Positions 16,632-61,730 of a stretch of DNA of 64,000 nucleotides are shown here, piece after piece. A program made the position numbers and the translations under genes. The stretch comes from Ostreococcus lucimarinus. Lineage: Eukaryota. Positions within the stretch are counted from its first letter, which is position 1, and every line of letters begins with the position of its first letter. The stretch is from assembly GCA_000092065.1 (NCBI GenBank), contig CP000586.1, one strand, 5' to 3'. The notes beneath the pieces are model-generated. The model saw only the letters and a program-made list of their open reading frames with translations. It did no database searches and was not told where the DNA came from.

Positions 16632-17756
16632 CTACGTGAGTCGGTCGTCGTCGTCGTCGCGCGCGTCGTCGTCGACGGCGGCGCGGTCGGCGAAGTCGAA
16701 ACGCTCGACGAGAGACATTTTGCCGCCACCGCCGAGGTCAAAGATGAGGCGGGAGTACTCGCCGCGCTCGCTGATGATGATGCACGAATCGGGATCGGCG
16801 GCGGGGAAGGTGACGAGCGACCGCGCGGTGGACGGAAGCTTGAACTGCGCGAGCGACCACTCGCTGCTAAAGTATTTGGGGAGGAGTTTCTTGACGAAAC
16901 CGGCGGCGGGTGAAGAAGAGGAAGGCGTGCGGGCGCCGTTCGAGGACGGTGTCGGTATCGGTGACGCCGTCGGTGCGCTCGAAGACGCGCTGGGGGTTTC
17001 TGGAATCCTGAACACGTGCACCGTGCCCTTGTCGCTCGTGACACAGAGCAAATTCTTCTTCGGCGAAAACGCGAGCGAGTACACTCGAGCTCGATCCGAG
17101 CCGCGACGGAATTCGTGCACGAGCGACGCCGTGTGCGTATCGAAGATCCGAATGAGCGTTCCTTTCTCGCTCGCCGTGGCTAATAACGAACCATCCGCGC
17201 TCAATCCCAAGCACGCCAACGCCGTCTCGTGCGCGGCGATGAACTTCGTCGTCCCTAAATCAAACAATTCCACCCGTACCTGCCCTCTATTCAACCCCGG
17301 GCACGCCATCACCGTGCGTTCCGTTGTGGGCGATATCGCGCACAACCCGCGCTCGTTCGCCGCCGTATCAATCTGCTGTTCCATCTTTAAATCTGAAAAA
17401 TTGTACACAAAAATTTTATGCGCCAAAGCGACGACCACCTTATCCCGCCGCAAACGCACCCCGCGCACCGGCACCTTGAACCCAAGCTCGCCGATGCATC
17501 TTCCTTGATGATCGTCCCATATCATCACCTTATTCGGCGAGAACTTCGGTTCGTCGCCGCCTCCAACCAGCGCTAATATATTGCACCTAAAGAGCATCTC
17601 CACGATTCCCACGCCGCCGTCTCGAAACTTCCGTCCAAAGGTTTCGCGGTACGGCGACGTGTTGTACACTGAAAACCCACGCGCGCGTCCGTCGCGCCGC
17701 GCGACGGCGAAGCACGCGCCGTCTTGGTTGTACGATATCGACAGCGGTTCGCCCAT
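16632..17756 (-). CDS. ATG18: WD-repeat PROPPIN, ATG18/WIPI family (autophagy, PI3P-binding)
   Basis: LFRCNILALVGGGDEPKFSPNKVMIWDD, the FRRG PI3P-binding motif (LVHEFRRGSDRARVYSLAF), and the overall beta-propeller. ATG (cat 17754-17756). Confidence 0.85.
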   Translation of the reverse strand: MGEPLSISYNQDGACFAVARRDGRARGFSVYNTSPYRETFGRKFRDGGVGIVEMLFRCNILALVGGGDEPKFSPNKVMIWDDHQGRCIGELGFKVPVRGVRLRRDKVVVALAHKIFVYNFSDLKMEQQIDTAANERGLCAISPTTERTVMACPGLNRGQVRVELFDLGTTKFIAAHETALACLGLSADGSLLATASEKGTLIRIFDTHTASLVHEFRRGSDRARVYSLAFSPKKNLLCVTSDKGTVHVFRIPETPSASSSAPTASPIPTPSSNGARTPSSSSPAAGFVKKLLPKYFSSEWSLAQFKLPSTARSLVTFPAADPDSCIIISERGEYSRLIFDLGGGGKMSLVERFDFADRAAVDDDARDDDDDRLT

Positions 17757-17952
17757 GGCGAATGCGAATCTAAATCTAACGAAACAAACGACGCGTCGCG
17801 CGCGATCGTCGCGTCGGCGAAGCGGTCGACGCGTCAAACGGCGCGTGAAGGGGTGTTCTCGCTATGGATACGCTGCTAGGGCGGCTAAGACGCGCGAGGC
17901 GCGGGCGGGTGTGCGGGAGCTCGTCGCGGCGGTTGGCGATGGCTACGGTTGG

Positions 17953-18663
17953 CTACGCGCCGCGAGCGACGCACTTCCAAACCGCGAATTTCGCGTCGTC
18001 GGTGCCCTGGCGGGTGATTTTGAGCGTGTCTGCTGTGGTGCCAGCGGCGATGGCGCGCACCGGGACGTATCGCTGGGCGACGAAGTACGCGATGCCGTCG
18101 GGACGGCGGAGCCGCCGAGCCAAACCGGCGAGGAATTCTCGAATCGGCACAAAGTCCACGGCGAGGCCCAAGTGCACGGGAGGGTTGGATAAGATCAGGT
18201 CGAACGCGCGATCGCTTTTCTCTAGGGCGCGCCAGCCGTCGGAGAGAATGAACTCGACGTCGTCAGAGAGATTTCTTTTCGCCGCTTCGAGCGCGCACGC
18301 ATCCGCGTCGAGAAGCCAGAGCCTTGATTTCTTCGCCTTGGCGCGCACGGCGGCGGCGATTTGACCGGCACCGGAGCAGTAATCTAACACTTTCAGTTTG
18401 GATTTTCGCTCGATCGTCGGAAGCACGCTTCGAAGGAGTAGCGTAGTCATGACATCCAAGCCGCCGCCGGCGAACAATCCGGGGTAGGCGACCCACGGTA
18501 CTGAATGTTCGGTCGTCATGACGTCGCTCAAGTCGAGCGTTTTCTTTTCTCTCCACTTCTTCAACTCTTTACCTTTCTTGTCCGGTTGTGCGCTAGAGCG
18601 CACGCAGTGCACGACGCCGTATTTATCGTCGTGCATGACTAATCTCGTTCGCTCGAATAATCC
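17953..18663 (-). CDS. RsmC-like rRNA (guanine-N2) methyltransferase, exon 2 (catalytic MTS domain)
   Basis: YPGLFAGGGLDVMTTLLL, VLDYCSGAGQIA and DLILSNPPVH match RsmC GVFS..LD.GS.LLL / VLDvGCGaGvl / D.IISNPPFH. The exon begins after the acceptor ctttttttgtccgaag|GGA. Confidence 0.75.
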   Translation of the reverse strand, partial: GLFERTRLVMHDDKYGVVHCVRSSAQPDKKGKELKKWREKKTLDLSDVMTTEHSVPWVAYPGLFAGGGLDVMTTLLLRSVLPTIERKSKLKVLDYCSGAGQIAAAVRAKAKKSRLWLLDADACALEAAKRNLSDDVEFILSDGWRALEKSDRAFDLILSNPPVHLGLAVDFVPIREFLAGLARRLRRPDGIAYFVAQRYVPVRAIAAGTTADTLKITRQGTDDAKFAVWKCVARGA

Positions 18664-18950
18664 CTTCGGACAAAAAAAGCGGTGTCAGTCATCGGTATCC
18701 ATCCATCGTCTCGAGAAATGTAGCGAACGTTACGAACTCGAAAGTCGCTCGGTGACGTTCAGTCGAGGCTCATTATTATTCGCCAGACGGACGACGCGCG
18801 CTCGGGGTTGGATGGCCCCTTTAGCGAGCAGCAGCAGTCGCGACCCGTCAGTAATTTTGCATCGTCCGCTTGGGCTTCACACGCGCGCATTGACGGCGCG
18901 CGGCGAAGTATGCCGATGCTTGACAAAAGTCGAGTTCGATAATGACGTAC
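18664..18950 (-). other. Intron (287 bp, phase 0) joining the two exons of the RsmC-like gene
   Basis: The minus-strand donor AAG|GTACGT is a perfect consensus. A polypyrimidine tract precedes the AG acceptor. Splicing joins ...IADLPK to GLFERTRLVMHDDKYGVV, continuing colinear similarity to E. coli RsmC (ADYAPLNK..RRCGLYFGRL). Confidence 0.65.
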
Positions 18951-20837
18951 CTTTGGTAAATCTGCAATGACACCGCGTATCCCTTCTGTGATGCCGCCAT
19001 AAATCCATATTCGCCCACCGAAACGCACGTTGGCGGCGACGGCGTGTAAAATCATCGCGAGCGATGCCTTGGTCGGCGGTGCTCGCACCATCGCCGCAGC
19101 GTAAAATTCATCAGGAGTCTCGGGCCAGCTCGTCCCTGTTCCGTGATCGCCACAGCTGAAACGCTGCCAGTTACTGACGCTCCATCCGACACGGCGCAGG
19201 CGCTTCGTGATCAAGCGGTGCTTGTCGTCGACGATGAGCACCCTCGCGCTCAACTCGTCGAACGGCGCCGTGATCTCCTGCGCCAACAGCGCGTCTGCGC
19301 TCCCCCGTTCGATGTGCATGCGATTCGCGTCAGTTTCTTCGCACACCGCGGTGCCTCGTACGCTGAGCTTTTCACGAATCGACTGCGCTTCGTCGTCGTC
19401 GAACACGTCGTCGATGACAAAGTCTAATCTCCCGACGGTTTGCCAATCGAAACCACCCATTCCACGTTCGATGGCGTTTATTATAGCCATCTTGAGCTGC
19501 GCCCCATCACTCATGCTAGTGCCCAATTTCAACGCGTGCGTTGCTTCGACGACAGCGGCGAGATCGGCACCCGTGAGCGTTGCTGCGTGCGTCTTCAAGC
19601 CCTTGGACGCGAATTTTGCGCAGTCGGCAAGCATTCTCGAGTCGACGACGACGGCACCGGCGGCATACATCACGTGCGCAAAACCTTGCGCGGAGAGACT
19701 CAAGTTTTTCGCGATCGGTATCAAGAGCGTGATGAGCTGTTTAGCATCACCCAACTCGACGTTTGGGTCGTTCGTCGCGAGTTTCCCCGCCGCCCAGGCG
19801 GCGTTGGCGACGGCTTGCGCATTCCAATCCTTTGGCTGCTTCTTTGCCATGTCCTTTGCGCGTTTCGCCAGTGGCTCCGCATACGTTGCGGCTTCTTTCC
19901 AACCATCACCGCCAAACGTCGCGATCGCCCACAGAGAAGAGGAAACCTCTTCCGTGCGAACTTCACCCGACGCCAACACGTGGACGAGCGCCGTCACGCA
20001 CTGCTCGTGCAACATTTTCCGCAGCTTCGCAGCGCCCCAAAGCGCGTTCGCCGCGTCTTGCGCGTTCGCCGTCGTCGCGCAAGTATTCAATCTATTTGCC
20101 GCTCCGCTCACCGCGCGGCGCAATAAAGCATCGTCGACGTGAGCGGCACATTTCGTCTTTAAAATCGTCGCGATTGACCAAATCGTCGTGCTCGCGGCGC
20201 GCGCGTCCATCGCGTCCTCGCCCATATCCACCATTCGCCTCGCCAGCGCGTTCATCGCACGGCCCAACGCCTTCACGACACCGTCGTACGCTTCAACACC
20301 GATTTGTCCCTCCGGCACCATCTTTGCCAGCTTCGCCACCGCCCACATTCCGGCGTTGCAGGACTTTCCATCGACGCGCTCCGCGTCGCTCGCCGTCTCC
20401 GTTGCCGCGCGCGAAACCTCACCCTCGTCCCCCAGCCCCTCATTTTTCGCCATCGAATGCAAGCGCCACAAGCTTACGCTCTTCACCGTCTTTCCTATCG
20501 CGCGATTCGCGCGCGCGTGCTTCGCGCGTCGTTCATCCTCCAGTCGTCGCGCTTCGCCCTCGCGGCGTCGCTTCTCGTCTCTCGCGCTCGCCGCTCTCGC
20601 GTCCGAGCCTCGCGCGTTCACCACCTCCTGGTCGCTCGCCCGCACCCCGATGGCGTCGAGCGCGTCGAGCGATCGCGCGATCGTCTCTTCCGCGCGCGCG
20701 CGACGCTCGGCGGCGGTTTTCGCGTCGACAGTTGATGTCCCGGCGGCGTCGAGTTCGACGAGCTTGGCGCTCGCCTGGCGCAGTTTCTTGATCAGCGCGC
20801 GCTTGTACGACGCATCGGGGGCTTTGTCGAGCGTCAT
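18951..20837 (-). CDS. RsmC-like methyltransferase, exon 1: roughly 450-aa alpha-helical repeat extension followed by the RsmC N-terminal (non-catalytic) MTS-like domain
   Basis: Recurring (A)NALWGAAKL / ANAAWAAGKL / SLWAIATF motifs at 40-50 aa spacing resemble OPR/FAST-like organellar RNA-binding repeats. WPETPDEFYAAAMV...GGRIWIYGGITEGIRGVIADL matches RsmC WPKNKPEAQFQLMNLL...[21 protein letters not shown]. Confidence 0.6.
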
Positions 20838-20939: not shown

Positions 20940-22526
20940 CTATTCCTGCGCCTCGCAACGCCGCGTCGCGGCGTCGGCGTCGCGCGCGTACACTAATAAT
21001 CGACGCTGCAGCTCGCGGTCGACCTCGACGTGGGCGTGATGGAAATCGGCCTCGAGGGTGAAATTCCAACTCGCGAGCCAGGCGCTCGCTCGAAGGGCGT
21101 CGGCGTCGAAGAGAACGAGTCGGCTCGGTGCCAACGCCGCGGCCACAGCGCAGGCGTGCGCGTCATTCGCGCTCGGCGTCGCGCCGTACTTTTGTTCGAG
21201 CCACGCATGTGGGTCGGCGGTGAACTTGGCGGAATCGTCCTCGCCCGGCGCGCGGTCGGGCGAGCAGTCGAGAAACGTCATGCGAATCTCGCGATGGATG
21301 TGCGAATAAAACGGCGTCTGGTGGCACGGCGTGGCGAAAAGTACGCCCCCGTGGGTTATTAAGCCACTTTTCGCCAAGCGCGCGATGTGTGGCATGACGG
21401 CGATCGTACCGGCTTGATGCCACACGGACAAGTACAGCGCCGCGGGGACGTTGGTGACGACCAACGCGGCGACGACGAAACGTCGACGCGACGGCGTCAT
21501 GGACGATAGCACCGAGGCCGCACTCACGAGCGAGACGCCGAGACACGGCAGTAAGAACCTGAATTCTTTGTGCGCGGCGAAAGAGTACCCCAAAATAGTC
21601 CAAAACGTCGCTATAAACGCCTCTGGCTTGGTCGCGCGATGGCGCCAAAATCCAATCGCCGCGAGCGGCAGCATCGTGCCCATCACCGCCGGATACCCTT
21701 GCGTGAGATACCAGTGCCAAGGATGTGAGCCATATATCGCGCTTCCACCTTCAAATACATTAAACCGCACGAAATTACACACCACACACGTCCACTCGCC
21801 GTAAAAATACCTATCGACGCACGCCGAGGCGCCGAGCGCAGCAAGCGCCGTCGGCGCCGCTTCGAGCGCCGCAAATCGCGCCTTCTCCCCGATCGTCGCC
21901 TTCGCCTTGATCAACGTCCGCACGCCGAGCGCGAGCCACAAAACGCCACTCGTCGGTCGCATCACGCACGCCAACGCCGCTAAAACCAACGCCTTGAACC
22001 GCCGTCGGCGTCCGCCCGCGCCTGTCCCGAGCGTCGTCCCGAGCGGCCAAAACGTCAACGCCCACGTCGTCGCGCAGGCCTCCACGCAATTCGAGAAGCT
22101 CCGCGTCTCGCAGTAAAACACGAACCAATTCAAAAATCTCAACACGATCACCGCCCTCGCGCACGCGTCGCCGTGCAATCGCAGCGCCAGGCGATAACAT
22201 CCGACGTCGTGCGTCCCGCTCAGCGCCGCGTGCGTCGCCCGCGGCGCGTGTCTCACGAACCAAGCCGACCGCGCGCCGACCGCGTCGCCCAGCTTATACA
22301 CCAGCGCATAGATTAAGGGATGCGCGTACCCTCGCAGCTTGGCGCGCCACTCCCACGTCGCGTGGCCGTAGCCGTAGACGATTTTGTGCGCGATTTCTGG
22401 CCCTTGCCAAAACTCGTCGGCGTTGAAAAACGTGCGCACGACGACGGCGTTGAAGGCGCGGAAGATCAGGCAACACGCGAGGACGGAGGTGAGTAAGTGT
22501 GAGGCGTGCCGGCGCGCCTCGCGCAT
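20940..22526 (-). CDS. GT22-family ER mannosyltransferase (PIG-B/GPI10- or ALG9/ALG12-like), multipass membrane protein
   Basis: FNADEFWQGPEIAHKIVYGYGHATWEW matches the GT22 signature (DEHWQSLEVAH..YG.G.LTWEW). Many hydrophobic segments. Confidence 0.75.
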   Translation of the reverse strand: MREARRHASHLLTSVLACCLIFRAFNAVVVRTFFNADEFWQGPEIAHKIVYGYGHATWEWRAKLRGYAHPLIYALVYKLGDAVGARSAWFVRHAPRATHAALSGTHDVGCYRLALRLHGDACARAVIVLRFLNWFVFYCETRSFSNCVEACATTWALTFWPLGTTLGTGAGGRRRRFKALVLAALACVMRPTSGVLWLALGVRTLIKAKATIGEKARFAALEAAPTALAALGASACVDRYFYGEWTCVVCNFVRFNVFEGGSAIYGSHPWHWYLTQGYPAVMGTMLPLAAIGFWRHRATKPEAFIATFWTILGYSFAAHKEFRFLLPCLGVSLVSAASVLSSMTPSRRRFVVAALVVTNVPAALYLSVWHQAGTIAVMPHIARLAKSGLITHGGVLFATPCHQTPFYSHIHREIRMTFLDCSPDRAPGEDDSAKFTADPHAWLEQKYGATPSANDAHACAVAAALAPSRLVLFDADALRASAWLASWNFTLEADFHHAHVEVDRELQRRLLVYARDADAATRRCEAQE

Positions 22527-40756: not shown

Positions 40757-40828
40757 TGCTGATTTAGGGGGTCGAACCCTAGATCTTCTGCTTACAAGGC
40801 AGACGCCTTACCACTTGGCCAAACCAGC
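40757..40828 (-). tRNA. tRNA-Thr (anticodon UGU), 72 nt, no encoded CCA
   Basis: Minus-strand sequence GCTGGTTTGGCCAAGTGGTAAGGCGTCTGCCTTGTAAGCAGAAGATCTAGGGTTCGACCCCCTAAATCAGCA. A 7-bp acceptor stem (one G-U), anticodon stem TCTGC/GCAGA with loop CTTGTAA, and a T-arm with GGTTCGA. Confidence 0.85.
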
Positions 40829-53612: not shown

Positions 53613-54021
53613 ATGGACGACGACGCGGACGCGACGCGCGCGACGCGCGCGCGCGCGCGCGACGCGACGCGCGGGACGGCGGGCGATGGATGCGCGCGCG
53701 CGACGGCGGAGTCGTTAGGGACGCGCGACGACGACGACGACGACGACCGCGGACGCGACGAAGACGCGCGGGCGACGACGAGGGCGCGTGCGCGCGAGGC
53801 GCGAGCGTCGACGGACGCGGACGCGCGCGAACGCGCGCGCGCGGACGACGCGCGCGAGGCGGACGACGGAGGCGGACGATCGAACGACGGCGGCGGCGAC
53901 GCGCGGGGCGAGGAGGAAGAGGACGACGACGGGCGAGACGATGGACGCGAGCGCGAACGCGCGAGCTCTGAGAGCGATCAGAGCGATCGGAGTCATCTGG
54001 ATCGCGATGATGGGTCGGAGA

Positions 54022-54054
<33 letters not shown>

Positions 54055-57000
54055 GGCGGCCGGCGGCGAACGTGGCGTATCCGATGTTTTTGTGCGACGA
54101 GCGGCATCGGGATTCGGCGAGGTTGTACGCGGACGACGACGGGGACGATGATGGGGAACGACAGAAGTGGCGCACGAAGGATCGCATGAAGACGGTTTCG
54201 GTGGCTCTGGTGCTTTGCTTGAACATAGGGGTGGACCCGCCCGATACGATGAAAATTTCGCCGTGCGCGCGCATGCAGTGTTGGATCAATCCGATGAGCG
54301 CTCAACCGCAAAACGAGTTGGACGCGATAGGAAAGGCGTTGCAGGCGCAGTACGAGCGATGGCAACCGAGAGCGAAGTATAAGCTTCAACTCGATCCCAC
54401 GACTGAGGATATGAAGAAACTGTGCATATCGTGCCGGAGAAACGCAAAGGGCGAGCGAGTTCTGCTCCACTACAACGGCCACGGAGTTCCGAAACCGACG
54501 GCTAATGGAGAAATTTGGGTTTTCAACAAATCTTACACGCAGTACATCCCGCTGTCGGTGTTTGATTTACAGGCTTGGACTGGGACGCCAGCCATTTACG
54601 TCTTCGACTGTTCCAACGCCGGATTGATCGTCAAATCCTTCTTGAAGCTGTCGGATCCATCTGCCGCGCCGAAAATGTCGCCGCCGACGACGAACGCTGG
54701 CTTGGATTTAGAACGACGCCAAATCGGTCGGTCTTTTGCGTTTGCCGAACTCGAGCATGCGCAACCAAAGTTAGATGCGGGAGATTCCGGTTTCGGGCCG
54801 ACTAATGTCACCAGCACAGCAAACGAGTGTATTTTAATCGCCGCGTGCGGTGCAAATGAAATTTTACCGCAATCGGCCGATCTTCCAGCTGATGTTTTCA
54901 GTGCATGCTTAACGACTCCAGTGAAAATGGCGTTGCATTGGTTTTGCTCGAATTCCGTCCTTCGAGGGCAAGGAATCTCGGCTGATATCATCGACAACAT
55001 CCCAGGAATGCAGAATAATCGCAAGACGCCACTGGGCGAGCTGAATTGGATTTTCACCGCAATCACGGATACGATCGCTTGGAACGTTTTGCCTCGTAGT
55101 CTTTTTCAACGATTGTTCAGGCAAGACTTACTCGTTGCGTCGTTGTTCAGGAATTTCTTGCTCGCCGAACGCATCATGCGTGCAAACAACTGCACGCCTG
55201 TATCATCGCCGAGATTGCCACCCACTCATCAACATCCTATGTGGGCGGCGTGGGATATGGCCGTCGAGCAGTGCTTGCTGCAAATGCCAGCTTTACTTTC
55301 TGGCAATCCAGACACTGAATTCGTGCCGTCGCCTTTCTTCACAGATCAACTCACAGCGTTCGAGGTGTGGTTGGAGTACGGAAGCGAGAACGACGCGCCG
55401 CCTGAACAGTTGCCGATCGTTTTGCAAGTTTTACTCTCTCAGTCGCACCGTTTGCGAGCGTTAATTCTGTTGGGGCGATTCTTGGATTTAGGATTGTGGG
55501 CCGTCGAGCTTGCATTATCTGTCGGCATCTTCCCTTACGTGTTAAAGTTGCTTCAGACGACGGCTCCAGAGTTGCGTCAAATTTTGGTTTTCATATGGAC
55601 GAAGATTCTTGCGCTTGATCGATCGTGTCAAGCCGATCTTGTCAAGGACGACGGTCACGCATATTTCATTCGGTTCTTGCAGAGTTCAAACGTACCGGTT
55701 GAAGAACGCGCGATGGCCGCTTTCATCTTGGCGGTCATCTCAGACGGCCATGAGAAGGGACAGACAGTTTGCATGGCTAGCGGCCTGATGGAGATTTGTT
55801 TACTAAATATCCCGGAAGCGGCACTCCCAGAGACCGGATCACCATTTTTCCTTCGATGGTTGTGTCTTTGCCTCGGAAAGCTGTGGGAAGACAATGTAGA
55901 GGCTCAGAAAGCTGCGTGTAACGCACAGGCGCACGCAATGCTGGCAACCTTGTTCGCGCATTCGTCACCGGATGCCCGTGCAGCGGCCGTGTACTCACTC
56001 GGCTCGCTCATTTCTATTGGTCACACGCTAGACCCCGATTTGCTTCAGAGAGAAGACTCAAAGGACGATTCTCAAACGCAAGAGCTCATGCACGCCATGT
56101 CGTCGACGAGCGTATTATCAACGCAGTCGCCCTCGCCTCGCCCGTTCAGCAGCCACGACGGACAAGAGACATTACCACAGGAAAATTTTGTTTCATCTGG
56201 TGCGATACCCGCAATGGAGCGTGAGGTGGCGATCAATTTGCTCACGACCGCAGAAGATGCGAGTCCAATGGTTAGAGTCGAAACTGCTGTAGCGCTCTCT
56301 CGTATCGCTCGCGCGCACAAAGTCTTCATGCGCGAAGCGGCGATTGCATGGAAACGCGATTACGACACCGTCACGGCGAGACGTGTGGTTGAATCCAAGC
56401 GTAGTGAAAATATCAGCAGTCGCCGTCGCTTCTCAAGTAGCGGATCTTTTGGAGGCTTTGACCATTCGATAGGGAGTACGAAGGGCATGTCCACCGTGGA
56501 TGAAGATGGCGATCGACCGACGAGCTCTCTCACCGTTGAAAATGTGGCGCGCTCGGCCGACGCACAGCAAGGATTATTGGACTCTCACGGTGAATGTAGC
56601 GATGGAGGTTCGATTCCACTCCCGCCTACGTATCCGCAATCGCAGTACGGCGATGATTGGATGCAAGAGCGGACAACTGAAGGACCGAAGGGTGGGTTGT
56701 ACACGCAAATCTTACAAGTGCTGCTCGATCTCGCCACCGACGCAGCTCCGTCTGTTTCCGCGGCAGGAATAAAAGCTCTCATGAGTGTTGGACTGGAAAT
56801 GACGCATCCAATAATGGAAAAAGCGACTAGCACTGGGAGCTTTGCCAAAGAGTCGTCGCAAGAAGCAAAATCGAAGTCGCATCGAAGACAGCCATCATTC
56901 GCAAGCTTAGATTTGGGAAGTTTCGAGCGTTCTTCTTCGAAAGATCTCACCACGAGTCCGAGTGGATCTTTGATGCGCACGGAATCGTGGTCCCAGAGGT

Positions 57001-58712
57001 TAACAAGCATTGGCTCGCGCTTGCTCGGATCACCGACTAAGCCTAAACCAGCTTCAACGCTGAGCGGCACCCGTGAGCCCGGTGCGCAAAGCCCATCTAA
57101 AGCTTCGGGTGGGCGAGGCGCACGATTCGGCGGCTTACGAAAGCAAGCGAGCGGAGGTAAAGACTCGTCGTTCCAAGGTGGAGGGCAGTCGATGAGTTCG
57201 TCGCACCTCCCGGCGTTGAATATTCCGCGCGTAGGATCGCGAACAAGCGACTTGCGACTTTCTCCGAGGAACGATTCACCGCTACGTCGAACGACAAGTA
57301 CGCTCATCTCCGATCACGACCCAGGTTACGATAGCTCGGGGACTTTACCGCGTTTTGGTTCTCACGCGTCCCTTGAATCGCTTGAGTCTCCTCGAATCGG
57401 TGGCGGATCGAATGATACGAGCAGATTCGATCATGCTCACGGCGACGAGTTACCGAGAAGTATGATTTACAAGCGCAGCTGCGCGCACTTTTCGATGGCA
57501 TTGCTCGAATCGGCGCAAGAGGAAGAAGAGAGTGAATTCGACGATGACTTCACAAGTGACGTTCCTCCATGGCTGCGAGCTCCCGATACGAAGCGTCGTG
57601 CGGACAGATTGAGAAGAATGTACGAGAGAATGGCAGAGACGCGAACGACGGAAGAACATCGACTCAAAATGACAGAGTATGTTTCGAGCATTGACGTGGG
57701 TGGAGGTGGCGTCGTGCCCACGTCGATCATCATGCACTCGTTAGAGCCACAAGCCGTCGCCGGCGACAATCGAGGTCGCGTACACGTCTGGGACCACACT
57801 TCATCGCGGATGGTCAACAAGATTGAAACGGGCTTGAAAAGCACCGACATGCTATCCCTCGTGAACGAAACCGACGATGCACTCTTACTCACGGGTTGCG
57901 TCGATGGCTCGGTGAAAATCTGGCGCGACTACGATAAAATTGGTGGTGAATCTCTCGTGACTGCTTGGAATACGCTGCCTTCGCCAACCATCTTACCCGA
58001 CACTGGAAGCACCGGCTCCTTACCGATGTCCCTGTACAAGCCGTCAACGCATTACAACGCCCATGAGTCCACGAAGGCGGTGATCGTTTGGCAGCAGCTG
58101 ACCGGATGTCTTTACGCCACGGGCAATGCGCCTCATCCGTTGCTGCGCGTTTGGGACGTTTCAAGCGAACTCTGCCGGGAGACATTGAGCCTTCAATCAC
58201 AAGGAACGTGTTTGACCGCTGAAGGCGCTCTTCTCATGGCTGGCACAGCAGATGGTGCAGTGTTGTCCTACGATTTGAGAGCGCCCGCACGTTTATTGAG
58301 CGCGATGCAAACGCACACGCAGCCAGTGATTTCAATCCTACTTCAACCTGGAGGCGAAGATAATCTCCTGATCACTGGTTGCTCAGACGGGCAAATCAAG
58401 TTTTGCGATTTGCGCAATGCATCGAAGCCATTTCTCACGACGGAAGTGTCGAGACCATCTGCGGTGCCCAATCGCACCCCATCGCTCACCGCGCTTGTCG
58501 GACATCCTTGCGCCCGCGTGATTGCCTCGGGATCATCTGAGCGCGCCATCAAGCTTTGGGATTTGCAAGGTCACAATTTCGCCTCAATTCAGTACACGAA
58601 CTCGTTCCTTGGGCAACGAATAGGTTCCGTCACCGCGCTCTCGTTCCATCCGAACTTGATGTACCTCGCAGCTGGTAGCAGCGCTGGTCACGCCACAATT
58701 TATAGTCATTAG
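53613..58712 (+). CDS. RAPTOR: Raptor (regulatory-associated protein of TOR): RNC caspase-like domain, HEAT/ARM repeats and C-terminal WD40
   Basis: VSVALVLCLNIGVDPPD...LQLDPTTEDMKKLCISCRRNAKGERVLLHYNGHGVPKPTANGEIWVFNKSYTQYIPLSVFDLQAWTGTPAIYVFDCSNAG is the conserved RNC block. WD40 repeats at the C-terminus (GCVDGSVKIWRD, GSSERAIKLWDL). 1699 aa, no intron. Confidence 0.9.
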
Positions 58713-58751
58713 CAAAATAGAAATGTCATCAACACGTTTTGTACAAATTAA

Positions 58752-61730
58752 TCATGGGTGGCTAAAACTAAACGCTAAGGCGCCGAACGCGTCGGCGAGC
58801 GCTCGTGCGCTCAAGCTAGGTTGCGTTGCGAGCAAACTCGCGACAATATTATTTAAGGATGTGTCAAATATGGCTTTGTTCACCAATGGCACCGCTGTTT
58901 TGAAACTTGCGACGACGCGCGCATCGCTGTTCCCTCCGTCAAGGTAATCTCGCAAGCTTTGATACGTCGAGAGCGTGATGGCGTGCGACTTCTTAAGGGC
59001 GTCACCAATAGCCCCATCGACTCGCGCAACCGCGAGGACGCTCACCAGTGTCGTCGTCAACTGGCAAATCAGCGCCGGTTTATACTTGAAATCCATTGCA
59101 CTTTGAGATTCGAAAGCAGTGCTCTGAATCTCGAGTGCCTCTAAGCTCAACGTCAGCACCGAAACAGAATCCACGTACGCCAAGGTCAGGCGCTCATGCC
59201 GTGCGCCGACCGCGAGCGCTGCGGCGGCGTGTAGACGAATCTTGAAATTCTTTGCGTCTCTTACGAGTAGTAGCAGCATTCTCACGATGAAGTCGGCCCA
59301 GTATGCGCCCACATCCATCGCTGAGTCGTTCTGTAGCAACGCCGCGACACCCAGACAGGCGTTCCATTGCGTCTTGGCGTTTCCCGTGGTCAAACAACTC
59401 GCCAAACTCTGCGCAGCTTTGTGAAGCCATTCGTGTGAGGTATCAAAAGTCGAGGCGGCAATAAGATGCGCGATTCCTCGCGTGGCGCTCGCGCGTACTT
59501 TGTCTCCTTGCTCAGCCGCGCTCGCAATCAAAACTTTTGCCAACGAAGCGACAGTGTCGTCGCATAACCGATTCTCCCTCGTCGCGTTCACCGCGCAGAG
59601 GTTAGCCAATGACCACATGGCTGGAATCTTCACTGACTTCGAAACATCTTCAGCGGCGATGAGAAGTGCCGCCGCGGTCTCTTCGAGATTGACGCATGGT
59701 AGGTAGATGAGGAAACCGAGCGCTCGGCAGGCGGCGGCGCGAACAGCGGGCACCGACTCATGTGAACCGCTAAGCACCGAGTGAGGCATCGATAGAAGCG
59801 AATCTAACGTTCGCACATCTGAACCAAAACATGTCAGAACATTTGAATTCACTCGAGTCAGTACGTTCAAACCAGCAACGCGAGTGAGCGCAGATTTATG
59901 CAAAGCGCACGTTGGCAACTGTGATTCAATCGCATTCGTCCACGCCGCTCGTAGAACCTCACTGGGAAGTGCGGGAGTACTTGCGATCATTCCGAAATCA
60001 ACCTCATCGTCGTCGCGCACTTGTCCGCTACCGCTCACGGAGCCGAGATAATCCGTGAGCAATCTTGCAGAGGCTTGACACACGCGGTCGTCCGCGCCCG
60101 AGGCGCACACCGCGCTCGGGAATAACTCGCGTAATTCATCACCTATCAGCGTCGCGGCCCCAGTGTGATGCACCACGAGTGCGCGCAGGACGCTAAATGC
60201 TTCACAACGCGATCCTGCGACCTCACCTTTTGCGTGCGAGATCATTCTGTAAATCATGGATGACGACGAGTCCGAGCTCAAGTATTCGTCGAGCGCCCGC
60301 GTCGCGCCGCGCGCGGAGAGCGCGGATGCCAGCGCTCCGAACAACGCGCTCTGTATCGTCGATCGATCGCTTGGCGTTTCTGCGGATAGATGCACGAGTT
60401 TAGCGTGAATCGAGTCCACGGTTTCTCGAAGAAGGTCTCGTGGGAATCGATCAAACGGCACGGCGTCGCACAGCGCCGCCACGGCTTTGCACAACTCTCG
60501 CGCGCACTGCGCGTTCTTCTCGCGTGACAACGCGGTCAGAAGTGCACGAAGAGTTATGATCACCATATCTCCTAAAGTTGTACTCAGCGCGGAAAAAGAG
60601 CGAACGCGAGCGCCAAATCCCGGCGCTAACGACGAACTCGCCGCGCCGTTGGCGCCGGCGCTCGTCGCCGCCTCTCGTCGTTCGGCGATGGCTAGGTATT
60701 GTCGACTTGCCGGTCCCTCAAACAGCGCCATCGTCGCGTTTGCCGCCGCGCCGCGCACCTTGGCGCTAGAATCACACGCGATCACTTTCACCAAACTCGT
60801 CGATACGCTCTTCTCCCGCAACTGATGTTCCGAAGTCGGCAACATCGTCGCCCACGCGCCGTGCAAAGCCTTCCCGTTCAATCTCGCGAGCGCGCCGAGC
60901 GCGCCGCACGCCCCCGCGCGCAAATCGCACGCATCTTTCTCACACATCGCGATGTTTTCATCGCTCTCTCTCGCGTGCGGCGGTTTGTACGACGTTCCCT
61001 CGCCGTCCTCCCCGTCGCCCTCGTCGTCTCGTCGACACGCCAACCGCGTCAACGCCTCGCACACCCCCGAGCGCGCGCCGACCCCCCAAACCTCGCTCGA
61101 CATCCCCCAGCGCACCACAAATTCCACGAACGCGCTCCAGCACCGCCGCATCGCCTCCGCGCGCCCCTCGTCTCGCTCCGTCGCCGCCGCGCCGCGCCGC
61201 AACCGTCCCGCCGCGCGCGCCGCCGCCCTCCCGATCGACTCCCCGTGCCTTCGCCACCCCACCGTCGCGCCGCTCGCCAGCGCGCGCATGTCCCGCTCCA
61301 TCGCCGCCATCGCCGCCGCCGTCGGCCCGCGCGCGTCGTCGTCGTCGTCGCTCGAGAGCAATCCAGTCAACGCCCGACCGATGACGCGTTCGTCATCGCC
61401 CGCGTCCGCGCCCTCCCGCGCCGCGACGTCGCGCCTCGTCGCCGCGAGCGCGTCCGAGGCGTCATCCTCGGCGTTCGCGCGCGCGATCGACGCGTCGCGC
61501 GCGTCCGATCGCGCCATGCGACGACGAATGCGGGCGCGCGCCGCGCGCCTTCGCGACACTTCGCGACGCGTCGACGCGACGCCGCGCGTCGGATCCGCCG
61601 CGCGAGCGCGCGCGACGATGGCGACGAACGCGCCGCAACCGCCGCTCGCGCGAGACGCGGCGGTCGATCTCGAGTGCGACGACGAGTTCGAGGAGTTTAC
61701 CGCGAAGAAGTGGGACGAAACGCAAAACAA
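58752..61730 (-). CDS. HEAT/ARM-repeat protein, HEATR6-like. Start uncertain.
   Basis: The C-terminal half has repeated blocks typical of HEATR6 (KIPAMWSLANLCAVNA, KVRASATRGIAHLIAA, KTQWNACLGVAALLQN, KIRLHAAAALAVGA). The N-terminal 250 aa are low complexity; an internal Met at 61517 is an alternative start. Confidence 0.55.
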   Translation of the reverse strand: MFCVSSHFFAVNSSNSSSHSRSTAASRASGGCGAFVAIVARARAADPTRGVASTRREVSRRRAARARIRRRMARSDARDASIARANAEDDASDALAATRRDVAAREGADAGDDERVIGRALTGLLSSDDDDDARGPTAAAMAAMERDMRALASGATVGWRRHGESIGRAAARAAGRLRRGAAATERDEGRAEAMRRCWSAFVEFVVRWGMSSEVWGVGARSGVCEALTRLACRRDDEGDGEDGEGTSYKPPHARESDENIAMCEKDACDLRAGACGALGALARLNGKALHGAWATMLPTSEHQLREKSVSTSLVKVIACDSSAKVRGAAANATMALFEGPASRQYLAIAERREAATSAGANGAASSSLAPGFGARVRSFSALSTTLGDMVIITLRALLTALSREKNAQCARELCKAVAALCDAVPFDRFPRDLLRETVDSIHAKLVHLSAETPSDRSTIQSALFGALASALSARGATRALDEYLSSDSSSSMIYRMISHAKGEVAGSRCEAFSVLRALVVHHTGAATLIGDELRELFPSAVCASGADDRVCQASARLLTDYLGSVSGSGQVRDDDEVDFGMIASTPALPSEVLRAAWTNAIESQLPTCALHKSALTRVAGLNVLTRVNSNVLTCFGSDVRTLDSLLSMPHSVLSGSHESVPAVRAAACRALGFLIYLPCVNLEETAAALLIAAEDVSKSVKIPAMWSLANLCAVNATRENRLCDDTVASLAKVLIASAAEQGDKVRASATRGIAHLIAASTFDTSHEWLHKAAQSLASCLTTGNAKTQWNACLGVAALLQNDSAMDVGAYWADFIVRMLLLLVRDAKNFKIRLHAAAALAVGARHERLTLAYVDSVSVLTLSLEALEIQSTAFESQSAMDFKYKPALICQLTTTLVSVLAVARVDGAIGDALKKSHAITLSTYQSLRDYLDGGNSDARVVASFKTAVPLVNKAIFDTSLNNIVASLLATQPSLSARALADAFGALAFSFSHP

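What the first reader, a model, noticed from the sequence alone, without database searches (positions are those of the whole stretch)
17953..20837. RsmC-like rRNA m2G methyltransferase with a roughly 450-aa helical-repeat N-terminal extension, assembled across a 287-bp intron
The 692-aa ORF (18759-20837) ends in a region colinear with the N-terminal non-catalytic domain of bacterial RsmC (WP..P...F, GG.IWIYGG..EGIRG). The next ORF downstream (17953-18636) is colinear with the RsmC catalytic domain. A perfect donor AAG|GTACGT (exon end 18951) and a pyrimidine-tract AG acceptor (exon start 18663) join them in phase. Upstream of the RsmC core is a long region of recurring A-x-A-L/A-W-x-A-x-K-L helical repeats reminiscent of OPR / FAST-like organellar RNA-binding repeats. 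A nuclear-encoded organellar rRNA methyltransferase carrying its own RNA-recognition repeat array would be unusual.
Basis: partly seen in the sequence, partly recalled or inferred. Interest (0 to 1): 0.6.

Follow-up and report, generated by a model that had tools for sequence, protein, structure and literature searches.

The report
Repeat-guided RsmC-like RNA methyltransferase gene
This is one spliced Ostreococcus gene, already deposited as an unnamed "predicted protein", that joins an RNA-binding helical-repeat array to a bacterial-type rRNA guanine methyltransferase; the family is uncharacterised but found in several protist groups, and the gene's only intron carries a conserved small nucleolar RNA.

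Summary
Exon 1 (20837-18951) and exon 2 (18663-17953) on the minus strand, joined across a 287-nt GT-AG intron, give an 865-aa protein. It is identical to GenBank XP_001418376.1 of Ostreococcus lucimarinus CCE9901. Both splice sites are conserved in relatives with only 50-56% protein identity. Their intron lengths differ modulo 3, yet the frame is always restored. Intronless orthologues read straight through the junction.

Residues about 530-865 fold as a complete two-domain RsmC. Residues 121-518 form an alpha-solenoid of 6-8 LWAxAKL-type repeats. Orthologues reach the Pfam thresholds for FAST_1, DUF1601 and MTS_N. The fusion occurs in Mamiellales, haptophytes and four choanoflagellates. I found no paper describing it.

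The "organellar" part of the reading is not supported. The protein has no presequence-like leader, and its N-terminus is conserved. Most orthologues end in Lys/Arg-rich, NLS-like tails. Choanoflagellates have no plastid, so a plastid-specific role is excluded.

Side finding: the intron holds a roughly 204-nt structured RNA that is better conserved than the exons. Its 3' hairpin is a canonical H/ACA guide for 18S rRNA U93 (human numbering), the SNORA75/U23 target.

The parts
18951..20837 (-). Exon 1, coding aa 1-629. It holds the N-terminal charged region, the helical-repeat solenoid and most of the RsmC-like N-terminal domain.
   Evidence: ORF. The exon ends at AAG|GTACGT. The spliced product is identical to XP_001418376.1.
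18664..18950 (-). The gene's only intron: 287 nt, GTACGT...CTGAC...T7GTCCGAAG.
   Evidence: The donor is conserved in five relatives and the acceptor in the four whose contigs reach it. Intron lengths are 317-361 nt and the frame is always restored.
17953..18663 (-). Exon 2, coding aa 630-865 plus the stop codon. It holds the end of the RsmC-like N-terminal domain and the catalytic domain.
20478..20837 (-). N-terminal region, aa 1-120. It has a conserved basic helix (YKRALIKKLR, aa 11-20) followed by a charged, low-confidence coiled region.
   Evidence: The motif is conserved in Mamiellales, choanoflagellate and other orthologues. pLDDT falls to 43-68 over aa 61-120.
19284..20477 (-). Alpha-solenoid, aa 121-518, made of about 8 helix-hairpin repeats. 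The second helix of each carries xLWAxAKL; the Trp-type positions are 165, 220, 267, 303, 350 and about 391.
   Evidence: AF2 helix pairs with pLDDT mostly above 88. The repeat HMM finds 6 in-register units, scoring 22.9 against a shuffled maximum of 9.2. Foldseek matches OPR/HPR mitoribosomal chains.
18511..19250 (-). RsmC-like N-terminal, non-catalytic domain, aa about 530-680. It is interrupted by the intron. Motifs: WxRFSCG...WP, VRAPPTKASLAMILHAVA, GGRIWIYGGITEGIRG.
   Evidence: Thermus RsmC 2zul/3dmf aligns across the junction. Foldseek covers both RsmC domains. Pfam MTS_N reaches threshold in orthologue P0049. There is no MTS_N hit in this protein itself.
17980..18489 (-). Catalytic Rossmann-fold methyltransferase domain (Pfam MTS), aa 688-857. 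SAM motif I is VLDYCSGAG.
   Evidence: PF05175, E=4.7e-21, 75.6 bits. E. coli RsmC 2pjd, E=1.5e-12.
18172..18186 (-). Catalytic motif IV, NPPVH (aa 789-793).
   Evidence: N, P, P and H are invariant in the 15-sequence family alignment, and V is nearly invariant. Coordinates checked. The motif aligns with NPPFH of RsmC.
18716..18919 (-). Conserved structured RNA inside the intron, about 204 nt, with three hairpin domains. An ANANNA candidate follows domain 1 and an ACA lies 3 nt before conservation stops. Interpreted as an H/ACA snoRNA.
   Evidence: Alignments A1 and A4. 65 pairs are 89% paired, against 31-45% when slid; 17 pairs show compensatory change; 0/500 shuffles reach the observed value. 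It is found only in this intron, in all 27 metagenome contigs matched by the pattern scan plus the window and earlier loci (21 distinct sequence variants). No Rfam hit.
18719..18784 (-). 3' guide hairpin of the intronic RNA. Lower stem GGCGAAU/GUUCGCU; pocket strands AAUAAUGAGC and UUCGUAAC; upper stem CUCGA/UCGAG; then the ACA box (18719-18721).
   Evidence: The pocket pairs 6+8 bp around U-G in 18S 5'-CUGCGAA[UG]GCUCAUUA. The pocket-to-ACA distance is 15 nt. The best 18S site scores 13.5 against 7.0 for the next, and 0/2000 shuffled guides reach it. Coordinates checked.
18684..18688 (-). Candidate branch site CTGAC, 20 nt upstream of the acceptor.
   Evidence: CTGAC or CTAAC also occurs in the otherwise unconserved 3' part of the relatives' introns.

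Best explanation
A single nuclear gene of two exons encodes an 865-aa enzyme with three parts:
- a conserved basic N-terminal helix followed by a charged linker (aa 1-120);
- an alpha-solenoid of about 8 helical-hairpin repeats of the OPR/HPR/FASTK (LWAxAKL) type (aa 121-518);
- a complete bacterial-type RsmC module, that is, a non-catalytic N-terminal domain plus a SAM-dependent Rossmann domain with the NPPVH motif (aa about 530-865).

**Proposed mechanism (inferred, not shown).** The solenoid binds a defined RNA segment. This places the RsmC module so that it transfers a methyl group from SAM to the exocyclic N2 of one guanine. The most likely substrate is a small-subunit rRNA during ribosome assembly, as for RsmC in bacteria.

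**Compartment.** The compartment is unresolved. Sequence features argue against a plastid role and against classical presequence import. My estimates are nuclear/nucleolar or cytosolic about 0.45, mitochondrial about 0.35, and other about 0.2.

**The intron.** It is retained in the Ostreococcus clade and hosts an H/ACA snoRNA. That snoRNA is predicted to guide pseudouridylation of 18S rRNA at the position equal to human U93.
For: **Gene structure (shown)**
- The splice is in phase and the product is identical to XP_001418376.1.
- Splice sites and frame restoration are conserved across relatives.
- Intronless orthologues and Prymnesium KAL1499314.1 are colinear through the junction.
- The gene order Glyco_transf_22, this gene, PROPPIN is conserved. 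PROPPIN still lies downstream in the Micromonas-like loci.

**Catalytic module (shown at fold and motif level)**
- Pfam MTS, E=4.7e-21.
- RsmC is the best NCBIfam hit.
- PDB RsmC matches by sequence and by fold, over both domains, ahead of RlmG.
- The AF2 model has pLDDT 86.4 and pTM 0.77.
- The nearest bacterial relatives, about 340 aa long, align to aa about 510-860 at 31-40% identity, E 1e-28 to 1e-40. Their best NCBIfam hit is RsmC, and several carry both MTS_N and MTS.
- D723, G727, G729, D748, D750 and N789-P790-P791-x-H793 are invariant.

**Solenoid (shown)**
- Helix pairs in the model.
- Six in-register repeat units.
- Orthologues carry canonical FxPQ[DE]L[AS]NxLWA[FL]AKL units at 38-aa spacing.
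- Orthologues reach Pfam FAST_1 and DUF1601 thresholds.
- The structural neighbours are chains of the Chlamydomonas, Polytomella and Toxoplasma mitoribosome structures. The literature reports OPR and HPR repeat proteins in mitoribosomes and as RNA binders (PMC8660880, PMC6212722).

**Compartment lean**
-.
Against: - No activity, substrate, localisation or transcript data exist for any member of the family.
- The protein scores 64.8 bits on the RsmC equivalog model, whose cut-off is 295. That match covers the catalytic half only, so this is not an RsmC orthologue by NCBI's criterion.
- The O. lucimarinus protein itself gives no Pfam hit for FAST_1 or MTS_N. Those assignments rest on orthologues and on fold.
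- The NPPxH motif is shared with protein glutamine N5-methyltransferases. PrmC is the second-best NCBIfam hit at 57 bits.
- As far as I know, no m2G has been reported in cytosolic rRNA of yeast, human or plants. This weighs against a nucleolar rRNA target.
- In the literature I read, the characterised OPR/HPR/FASTK proteins act in organelles (FASTK proteins in mitochondria; PMC5737537). This weighs against my compartment lean.
Confidence: 0.6

Rival explanations
1. The protein is imported into an organelle. There its repeat array recognises organellar SSU rRNA, and the RsmC module makes the equivalent of bacterial m2G1207. Because choanoflagellates have the family, the organelle would have to be the mitochondrion.
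For: - In the papers I read, OPR, HPR and FASTK proteins act in organellar RNA metabolism (PMC6212722, PMC8635915, PMC5737537).
- The closest solenoid folds are chains of mitoribosome structures.
- The catalytic module is of bacterial RsmC type. Organellar ribosomes are of bacterial type.
- Some orthologues, such as P0147, start with an Arg-rich, nearly acid-free leader.
Against: - Met1 cannot be extended, because the upstream gene ends 103 bp away.
- The N-terminus is conserved in sequence and carries 2 acidic residues in its first 25 aa. Other orthologues carry up to 8. For example, P0036 starts MGGEEEKW and P0056 starts with an acidic ankyrin-repeat extension.
- Basic KKE or KRKR C-terminal tails are recurrent.
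- A plastid-specific role is excluded by the choanoflagellate members.
- No targeting predictor was available, so this evidence is compositional only.
Confidence: 0.35
2. The solenoid is a protein-binding scaffold of the ARM/HEAT type. The methyltransferase modifies a protein side chain rather than RNA, for example glutamine N5 as HemK/PrmC does.
For: - PrmC and PrmB models are the next-best NCBIfam hits, and the NPPxH motif is shared with them.
- Designed armadillo-repeat proteins appear among the Foldseek matches at E about 5e-4.
Against: - Both RsmC domains are matched, with target-normalised TM 0.71-0.78. PrmC matches the catalytic domain only, over 202 columns.
- The repeat motif is of the FAST_1/DUF1601 type in orthologues, not ARM or HEAT.
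- The bacterial relatives are RsmC-like over their full length.
Confidence: 0.05
3. The two ORFs are separate genes, or the intron is normally retained. The main product would then be the 692-aa repeat protein without a catalytic domain, plus a separate 227-aa methyltransferase.
For: - Both ORFs are open, and ORF2 starts with ATG.
- Prokaryote-style gene callers report them separately in metagenomes. The cluster of P0001 holds both 692-aa and 227-aa members.
Against: - The ORF1 tail beyond LPK loses all similarity between relatives.
- The RsmC N-terminal domain would be cut in two.
- Conservation in exon 2 begins 9 codons upstream of the ATG, exactly at the acceptor.
- Intronless orthologues encode one continuous protein.
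Confidence: 0.03

Closest known systems
Bacterial RsmC, the 16S rRNA m2G1207 methyltransferase (E. coli 2PJD; T. thermophilus 3DMF/2ZUL)
   Same: - Same two-domain fold: a non-catalytic N-terminal domain plus an MTS Rossmann domain.
- Same SAM motif I, acidic motif II and NPP[F/V]H motif IV.
- Colinear over about 340 aa.
   Different: - It scores only 64.8 bits against the 295-bit equivalog cut-off.
- It is preceded by about 520 aa that bacterial RsmC lacks.
- It is eukaryotic and nuclear-encoded, and its substrate is unknown.
RlmG, the 23S rRNA m2G1835 methyltransferase (4DCM)
   Same: Same two-domain architecture and the same chemistry. It is the fifth-ranked Foldseek match, after the four RsmC structures, at E=8.5e-10.
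   Different: It matches less well than RsmC in every comparison.
OPR / HPR / FASTK helical-repeat RNA-binding proteins. Examples are Chlamydomonas mL113 and mL115-118, Plasmodium and Toxoplasma HPR proteins, and human FASTKD1-5.
   Same: - Repeats of about 38 aa, each two helices, with an LWA[LF]AKL-type second helix.
- Alpha-solenoid fold.
- Orthologues reach the Pfam FAST_1 and DUF1601 thresholds.
   Different: - There is no PPPEW motif and no RAP or FAST_2 domain. The C-terminal partner is a methyltransferase instead.
- The O. lucimarinus repeats are degenerate and give no Pfam hit.
- Sequence features do not indicate organellar import.
Helical-repeat plus enzyme fusions of organellar RNA metabolism: PPR-NYN (PRORP), PPR-DYW, and OPR-RAP (NCL proteins)
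   Same: Same design logic: a repeat array for RNA recognition fused to a catalytic domain. This comparison rests on my own knowledge and on PMC8635915.
   Different: The catalytic partner here is a base methyltransferase. I found no paper describing that combination.
SNORA75 / U23, the vertebrate H/ACA snoRNA that guides 18S-Psi93 (comparison for the intronic RNA)
   Same: - The predicted target uridine is the same, in the conserved CUGCGAA-U-GGCUCAUUA stretch of 18S.
- Both are intron-hosted (U23's intronic location in the nucleolin gene is from my own knowledge).
- The ACA box lies 15 nt from the pocket.
   Different: - No similarity detectable with Rfam.
- Three hairpin domains instead of two.
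- The 5' hairpin has no identifiable 18S target.
- Expression has not been shown.

Membership tests
RsmC (16S rRNA guanine1207-N2 methyltransferase) | Two-domain architecture: an MTS_N-like non-catalytic domain followed by an MTS Rossmann domain | tested here: met
   Foldseek matches 3dmf, 2pjd and 2zul over 370-379 columns, target-normalised TM 0.71-0.78, E about 1e-12. The phmmer alignment to 2zul spans both domains and the splice junction.
RsmC (16S rRNA guanine1207-N2 methyltransferase) | SAM-binding motif I and catalytic NPP[F/Y/H]-type motif IV | tested here: met
   VLDYCSGAG, LLDAD and NPPVH are present. The motifs are invariant or nearly invariant across the family alignment.
RsmC (16S rRNA guanine1207-N2 methyltransferase) | Score above the curated equivalog cut-off (NCBIfam NF007023, 295 bits) | tested here: not met
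   64.8 bits, covering model positions 170-321 only. Orthologues and the nearest bacterial relatives reach 71-130 bits.
RsmC (16S rRNA guanine1207-N2 methyltransferase) | Pfam MTS (PF05175) and MTS_N (PF08468) above gathering score | tested here: inconclusive
   MTS is met at 75.6 bits. There is no MTS_N hit in this protein. MTS_N reaches 28.2 bits, above the 27.3 cut-off, in orthologue P0049. It is precomputed in several of the bacterial relatives of about 340 aa.
RsmC (16S rRNA guanine1207-N2 methyltransferase) | Methylates N2 of G1207 in SSU rRNA | not testable with these tools
   Needs a knock-out or an in-vitro assay, with m2G mapping.
OPR / HPR / FASTK-type helical-repeat proteins | Tandem repeats of about 37-40 aa, each a pair of antiparallel helices, forming an alpha-solenoid | tested here: met
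   The AF2 model shows 8 helix pairs between aa 138 and 478. The repeat HMM places units at aa 164, 209, 258, 297, 339 and 381, a spacing of 39-49 aa. The score is 22.9 against shuffles of 0.1 +/- 1.4.
OPR / HPR / FASTK-type helical-repeat proteins | Family consensus in the repeat: PPPEW for classical OPR, or LWAL-AKL/R for the FASTK, HPR and CCS2 type | tested here: inconclusive
   PPPEW is absent. The LWAxAKL type is present: ALWGAAKL, AAWAAGKL, GMWAVAKL, SLWAIATF. Orthologues reach FAST_1 at 34.4 bits (cut-off 27.4) and DUF1601 at 26.9 bits (cut-off 25). This protein has no such Pfam hit.
OPR / HPR / FASTK-type helical-repeat proteins | C-terminal RAP (or FAST_2 plus RAP) domain, defining for FASTK and common in OPR and HPR proteins | tested here: not met
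   No RAP or FAST_2 hit in this protein or in 8 orthologues. The C-terminal partner is the RsmC-like module.
OPR / HPR / FASTK-type helical-repeat proteins | Organellar localisation | tested here: inconclusive
   No predictor was available. The N-terminus is conserved and contains acidic residues, and the start codon cannot be extended. Orthologues have basic NLS-like tails. These features do not favour import, but they are not a test.
H/ACA box snoRNA (for the intronic RNA) | Hairpin-hinge-hairpin-tail structure supported by covariation | tested here: inconclusive
   There are three hairpin domains, not two. They are 89% paired, against 31-45% for slid controls, with 17 compensatory pairs and 0/500 shuffles reaching the observed value.
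H/ACA box snoRNA (for the intronic RNA) | H box (ANANNA) in a hinge, and an ACA box 3 nt from the 3' end | tested here: inconclusive
   An ANANNA candidate follows domain 1 in every variant: ACAUCA, ACAGAA, ACAGGA, ACAUAA or AAAUUA. The ACA is invariant, and conservation stops 1-3 nt after it. The true 3' end is unknown without RNA data.
H/ACA box snoRNA (for the intronic RNA) | Pseudouridylation pocket with bipartite complementarity to a target, with the target U 14-16 nt upstream of the ACA | tested here: met
   6+8 bp flank U-G in 18S CUGCGAA[UG]GCUCAUUA. The distance is 15 nt. It is the unique best site in an 18S sequence, scoring 13.5 against 7.0 for the next. 0/2000 shuffled guides reach that score. 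The target equals vertebrate 18S-Psi93.
H/ACA box snoRNA (for the intronic RNA) | Sense orientation within an intron of a host gene | tested here: met
   G-U pairs occur only on the host-gene strand. The element lies in the same intron in all 27 metagenome contigs matched by the pattern scan, as well as in the window and the earlier loci.

The most novel reading that the evidence does not exclude
This family would be the first OPR/HPR/FASTK-type solenoid enzyme that works outside organelles. On this reading it is a nuclear or nucleolar RsmC-like methyltransferase, carrying KKE/D- or NLS-type tails like snoRNP proteins. It would install an m2G on cytosolic (pre-)rRNA, or on another nuclear RNA, in Mamiellales, haptophytes and acanthoecid choanoflagellates. 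Cytosolic rRNA in the usual model eukaryotes is not known to carry that modification. In Ostreococcus the gene would also serve as host for an 18S-directed H/ACA snoRNA.
Probability: 0.3. Interest if true: 0.75.

Novelty: new variant of a known kind. Interest (0 to 1): 0.5.

Why it matters
**The protein**
- If the mechanism holds, this is a natural case of a base-modifying enzyme whose target choice is handed to a modular helical-repeat array.
- That is the same design as PPR-DYW editing factors, PRORP and OPR-RAP nucleases, but with a methyltransferase as the catalytic part.
- Such a protein would make the still unsolved OPR/HPR recognition code directly testable, because one methylated guanine reports where the array binds.
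- It would also be a template for programmable RNA methylation.
- The family occurs in green picoalgae, haptophytes and choanoflagellates but has not been described in model organisms. It therefore points to an RNA modification that has not been looked for in those lineages.
- Whether it acts in mitochondria or in the nucleolus decides whether OPR/HPR-type proteins are strictly organellar.

**The intronic snoRNA**
- This part is ordinary biology.
- It explains why an intron-poor genome keeps this intron.
- It adds a testable 18S pseudouridine guide for Ostreococcus.

Tried and rejected
1. **Sequence search of the N-terminal 520 aa against PDB chains.** No hit at E<=10. Only fold comparison and orthologue profiles linked it to OPR/HPR proteins.
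2. **The search for homologous proteins with the full-length protein and with the family alignment.** Both returned only the Ostreococcus-clade ORFs and Prymnesium. The word prefilter was probably swamped by Ala-rich words. The exhaustive phmmer search and a query of the C-terminal 350 aa were needed.
3. **Foldseek against AFDB.** The library was not available, so no UniProt-wide taxonomic survey was made.
4. **Supplement of the 2026 OPR catalogue (PMC13126933).** A4RYF4 does not appear in the part held, although other O. lucimarinus OPR proteins do. The file is cut, so this is not conclusive.
5. **The intronic RNA as a mimic of the enzyme's rRNA substrate (autoregulation).** Local alignment to E. 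coli 16S and 23S gave scores within the shuffled range. Rejected for E. coli rRNA. Ostreococcus organellar rRNAs were not available.
6. **The intronic RNA as a C/D snoRNA, telomerase RNA or RNase P/MRP RNA.** No conserved C/D boxes, no CCCTAAA-type template, and no Rfam match at E<=10. Rejected.
7. **A target for the 5' hairpin pocket in 18S.** Nothing convincing was found, and its 3' pocket strand is not conserved. 25S rRNA could not be tested.
8. **The snoRNA guide motif near the intronless Micromonas-like orthologues.** It is absent from L035 and L036.

Full report
**What is in the sequence**

The window is nuclear DNA of Ostreococcus lucimarinus CCE9901. On the minus strand there is a 692-aa ORF (18759-20837) and a 227-aa ORF (17953-18636). 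The first ORF passes through ...CCA AAG|GTACGT, with the last exon base at 18951. Further on, the sequence ...CTGAC-N13-TTTTTTTGTCCGAAG|GGATTATTC puts the first base of the next exon at 18663. Removing these 287 nt joins the two frames in phase and gives 865 aa. GC3 is 0.72 in both exons.

The product is identical over all 865 residues to XP_001418376.1 / ABO96669.1, a "predicted protein". UniRef lists it as A4RYF4, "Methyltransferase small domain-containing protein". The model is not new.

**Is the splice real?**

I fetched the orthologous locus from Ostreococcus-clade metagenome contigs whose proteins are only 50-56% identical.

- All have the same neighbours: Glyco_transf_22 upstream and PROPPIN downstream.
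- In each, a GT follows the LP[K/T] codon.
- Where the contig reaches that far, an AG precedes [G/E][L/M]F[E/Q]xx[K/R]L.
- The introns are 287, 317, 324, 331 and 361 nt long, in different classes modulo 3. The frame is restored each time.
- Past the donor, the translated ORF1 tails lose all similarity.
- Conservation of exon 2 begins at the acceptor, nine codons before the ATG of ORF2.
- Prymnesium parvum KAL1499314.1 (904 aa) and many other eukaryotic homologues are colinear through the junction.
- Two orthologue groups (P0036 and P0040) come from contigs of other picoeukaryotes, probably other Mamiellales to judge by identity and synteny; the organism was not determined. They encode the whole protein as one uninterrupted ORF, with PROPPIN still downstream.
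- Thermus RsmC (2zul/3dmf) aligns by sequence across the junction.

No transcript data were available. Even so, the comparative evidence leaves very little room for two separate genes.

**The C-terminal 340 residues**

- Pfam finds MTS (PF05175) at aa 688-857, E=4.7e-21.
- The best NCBIfam model is RsmC, but at 64.8 bits against a cut-off of 295, and only over the catalytic half.
- The AlphaFold model, built on a 15-sequence family alignment, has pLDDT 86.4 and pTM 0.77.
- Its best PDB matches are T. thermophilus and E. coli RsmC, at E about 1e-12 and target-normalised TM 0.71-0.78 over 370-379 columns. That covers both RsmC domains. RlmG comes next.
- An exhaustive phmmer search of 1.84 billion representative proteins found 2009 hits.
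- Many are bacterial-type proteins of about 340 aa that align to aa about 510-860 at 31-40% identity, E 1e-28 to 1e-40.
- One is labelled Myxococcota.
- Their best NCBIfam hit is again RsmC, at 96-130 bits over positions about 77-340.
- Several carry both MTS_N and MTS.
- SAM motif I (VLDYCSGAG), the LLDAD acidic motif and NPPVH are invariant or nearly so in the family alignment.

The module is RsmC-like in fold, architecture and motifs. It is not an RsmC equivalog by the curated score, and the substrate guanine is unknown.

**The N-terminal 520 residues**

- Residues 121-518 are modelled with high confidence as consecutive helix pairs.
- The second helix of each pair carries xLWAxAKL (GMWAVAKL, TIWSIATI, ALWGAAKL, SLWAIATF, AAWAAGKL and others), spaced 36-55 aa apart.
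- In O. lucimarinus the repeats are degenerate, and Pfam finds nothing there.
- Orthologues carry textbook units, FxPQ[DE]L[AS]NxLWA[FL]AKLG, at 38-aa spacing.
- Orthologues reach the Pfam thresholds for FAST_1 (P0076, 34.4 bits, cut-off 27.4) and DUF1601 (P0039, 26.9 bits, cut-off 25).
- I built a 38-column HMM from 50 such orthologue units. It finds six in-register units in the O. lucimarinus protein, at aa 164, 209, 258, 297, 339 and 381. The score is 22.9. Across 300 shuffles of the same region the mean was 0.1 +/- 1.4 and the maximum 9.2.
- By fold, the solenoid's best neighbours are chains of the Polytomella, Chlamydomonas and Toxoplasma mitoribosomes, at E 1e-4 to 3e-5. [quoted passage not shown] HPR proteins are organellar RNA binders of apicomplexans (PMC6212722).
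- The classical OPR PPPEW motif is absent. The motif here resembles the LWALAR variant reported for CCS2 (PMC8635915).
- No RAP or FAST_2 domain is present.

**Distribution**

The same architecture occurs in the following groups:
- the Ostreococcus clade;
- two further groups from picoeukaryote contigs, with orthologues of 1053 and 1087 aa (probably other Mamiellales; organism not determined);
- Prymnesium, plus several unlabelled metagenome proteins that share its distinctive N- and C-terminal motifs;
- four acanthoecid choanoflagellate transcriptomes (Diaphanoeca, Savillea, Helgoeca, Didymoeca);
- a Yihiella (dinoflagellate) transcriptome, which might be prey contamination;
- many unassigned marine metagenome and metatranscriptome contigs.

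No named protein from a land plant, Chlamydomonas, an animal or a fungus appeared among the hits.

Full-text searches found no paper that mentions RsmC together with OPR, HPR or FASTK. The 2026 OPR catalogue does not mention methyltransferases.

**Compartment and substrate**

Several features speak against classical import.

- Met1 cannot be moved upstream, because the previous gene ends at 20940, 103 bp away.
- Residues 11-20 (YKRALIKKLR) belong to a motif conserved across Mamiellales, choanoflagellates and other orthologues. Presequences are normally variable.
- The first 25 residues of the listed orthologues contain 1-8 acidic residues. Examples are MGGEEEKW..., and a long acidic ankyrin-repeat extension in Savillea.
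- Most orthologues end in Lys/Arg-rich tails (KKEKKEKKEK..., SKAQRKRARRK, KKKRKK, KKRKRKR).
- From my own knowledge, such tails resemble NLSs and the KKE/D tails of nucleolar snoRNP proteins.
- The O. lucimarinus protein itself has no such tail.

The choanoflagellate members exclude a plastid-specific role.

On the other side:
- In the literature I read, the characterised OPR/HPR/FASTK proteins act in organelles.
- The catalytic module is bacterial in type.
- To my knowledge, cytosolic rRNAs of model eukaryotes carry no m2G.

I had no targeting predictor. I therefore leave the compartment open, at roughly 0.45 nuclear/nucleolar or cytosolic and 0.35 mitochondrial. I regard the chemistry (SAM-dependent guanine-N2 methylation of RNA) and repeat-guided recognition as the best-supported mechanism. 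Both are inferred, not shown.

**The intron (side finding)**

When the relatives' introns are aligned, the ends are unalignable, but about 204 nt in the middle are nearly invariant. This core (window 18716-18919, minus strand) is far more conserved than the exons.

- A 23-base pattern from the core occurs once in the window.
- It occurs in 27 metagenome contigs, always in this same intron. Together with the window and the earlier loci there are 21 distinct sequence variants.
- All variants fold alike, into three hairpin domains.
- On the 15-sequence alignment, 65 pairs are 89% paired, against 31-45% for slid controls.
- 17 pairs show compensatory changes, and 0 of 500 shuffles reach the observed covariation.
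- G-U pairs place the RNA on the host-gene strand.
- Rfam has no match.

The 3' domain (18719-18784) has these features:
- a 7-bp lower stem;
- an internal loop whose two strands (AAUAAUGAGC and UUCGUAAC) are invariant;
- a 5-bp upper stem;
- an invariant ACA, after which conservation stops within 3 nt.

The loop strands pair 6+8 bp with 18S rRNA 5'-CUGCGAA[UG]GCUCAUUA. This leaves U-G unpaired at the top of the pocket, 15 nt from the ACA, which is the H/ACA guide geometry.

I scanned a green-algal 18S sequence taken from PMC8125830. This site is by far the best, scoring 13.5 against 7.0 for the next. None of 2000 shuffled guides reaches that score.

The same 18S stretch appears in 59 papers on taxa from yeast to helminths. 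The target uridine corresponds to human 18S U93, which is pseudouridylated under the guidance of SNORA75/U23.

An ANANNA candidate follows the first domain in every variant. The 5' hairpin has no 18S target that I could find.

I read this RNA as an intron-hosted H/ACA snoRNA with an atypical third hairpin. Expression is untested. It gives a simple reason why the Ostreococcus clade keeps this intron while the intronless orthologue groups (P0036, P0040) lack it. The guide motif is not present near those orthologues.

**Verdict**

The architectural interpretation is confirmed. The organellar assignment is not supported.

- The gene model is already known.
- The protein family is an undescribed variant of a known design, a helical-repeat RNA binder fused to an enzyme.
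- The intron element is a new member of a known kind.

Interest is moderate: a good experimental lead, with nothing yet shown about function.

Noticed in passing
window 18716-18919 (-), inside the intron 18664-18950: A structured RNA of about 204 nt that is more conserved than the flanking exons. It has three hairpin domains supported by covariation. Its 3' hairpin is a canonical H/ACA guide for 18S rRNA U93 (human numbering), which is the SNORA75/U23 target. There is no Rfam match.
   Followed up: yes
L035:1628-4789 and L036:6001-9264 (orthologues P0036 and P0040): These orthologues, from contigs of other picoeukaryotes (probably other Mamiellales), have no intron at this position. They carry long inserts and end in KKEKKEKK-type tails like those of nucleolar snoRNP proteins. 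PROPPIN is still downstream, with a Glyco_tran_28_C gene inserted in between. The snoRNA guide motif is not found within these loci.
   Followed up: partly
window 16632-17837 (-) and 20940-22526 (-): The flanking genes encode a PROPPIN/WIPI-type WD40 protein and a Glyco_transf_22 mannosyltransferase-like protein. Their order around the methyltransferase gene is conserved across the Ostreococcus-clade contigs. The intergenic spacers are only about 100 bp.
   Followed up: partly
protein cluster of P0001: Prokaryote-style gene calling on metagenomes splits this gene into two products: a 692-aa 'hypothetical protein' that reads into the intron, and a 227-aa '16S rRNA G1207 methylase RsmC'. One 90% cluster mixes these fragments with the true 865-aa protein. 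This is a caution for anyone using such clusters for eukaryotic genes.
   Followed up: partly
window 40757-40828 (-): tRNA-Thr(UGU). It is the only Rfam match at gathering score in the 64-kb window.
   Followed up: no
window 54001-60000 and 62001-64000: G+C drops to 0.54-0.55, against 0.57-0.72 in the rest of the window.
   Followed up: no
P0056 (Savillea parva, 1735 aa): This choanoflagellate orthologue has an extra N-terminal part of about 900 aa. It begins with an acidic stretch and ankyrin-like repeats, and precedes the solenoid and the RsmC module.
   Followed up: no
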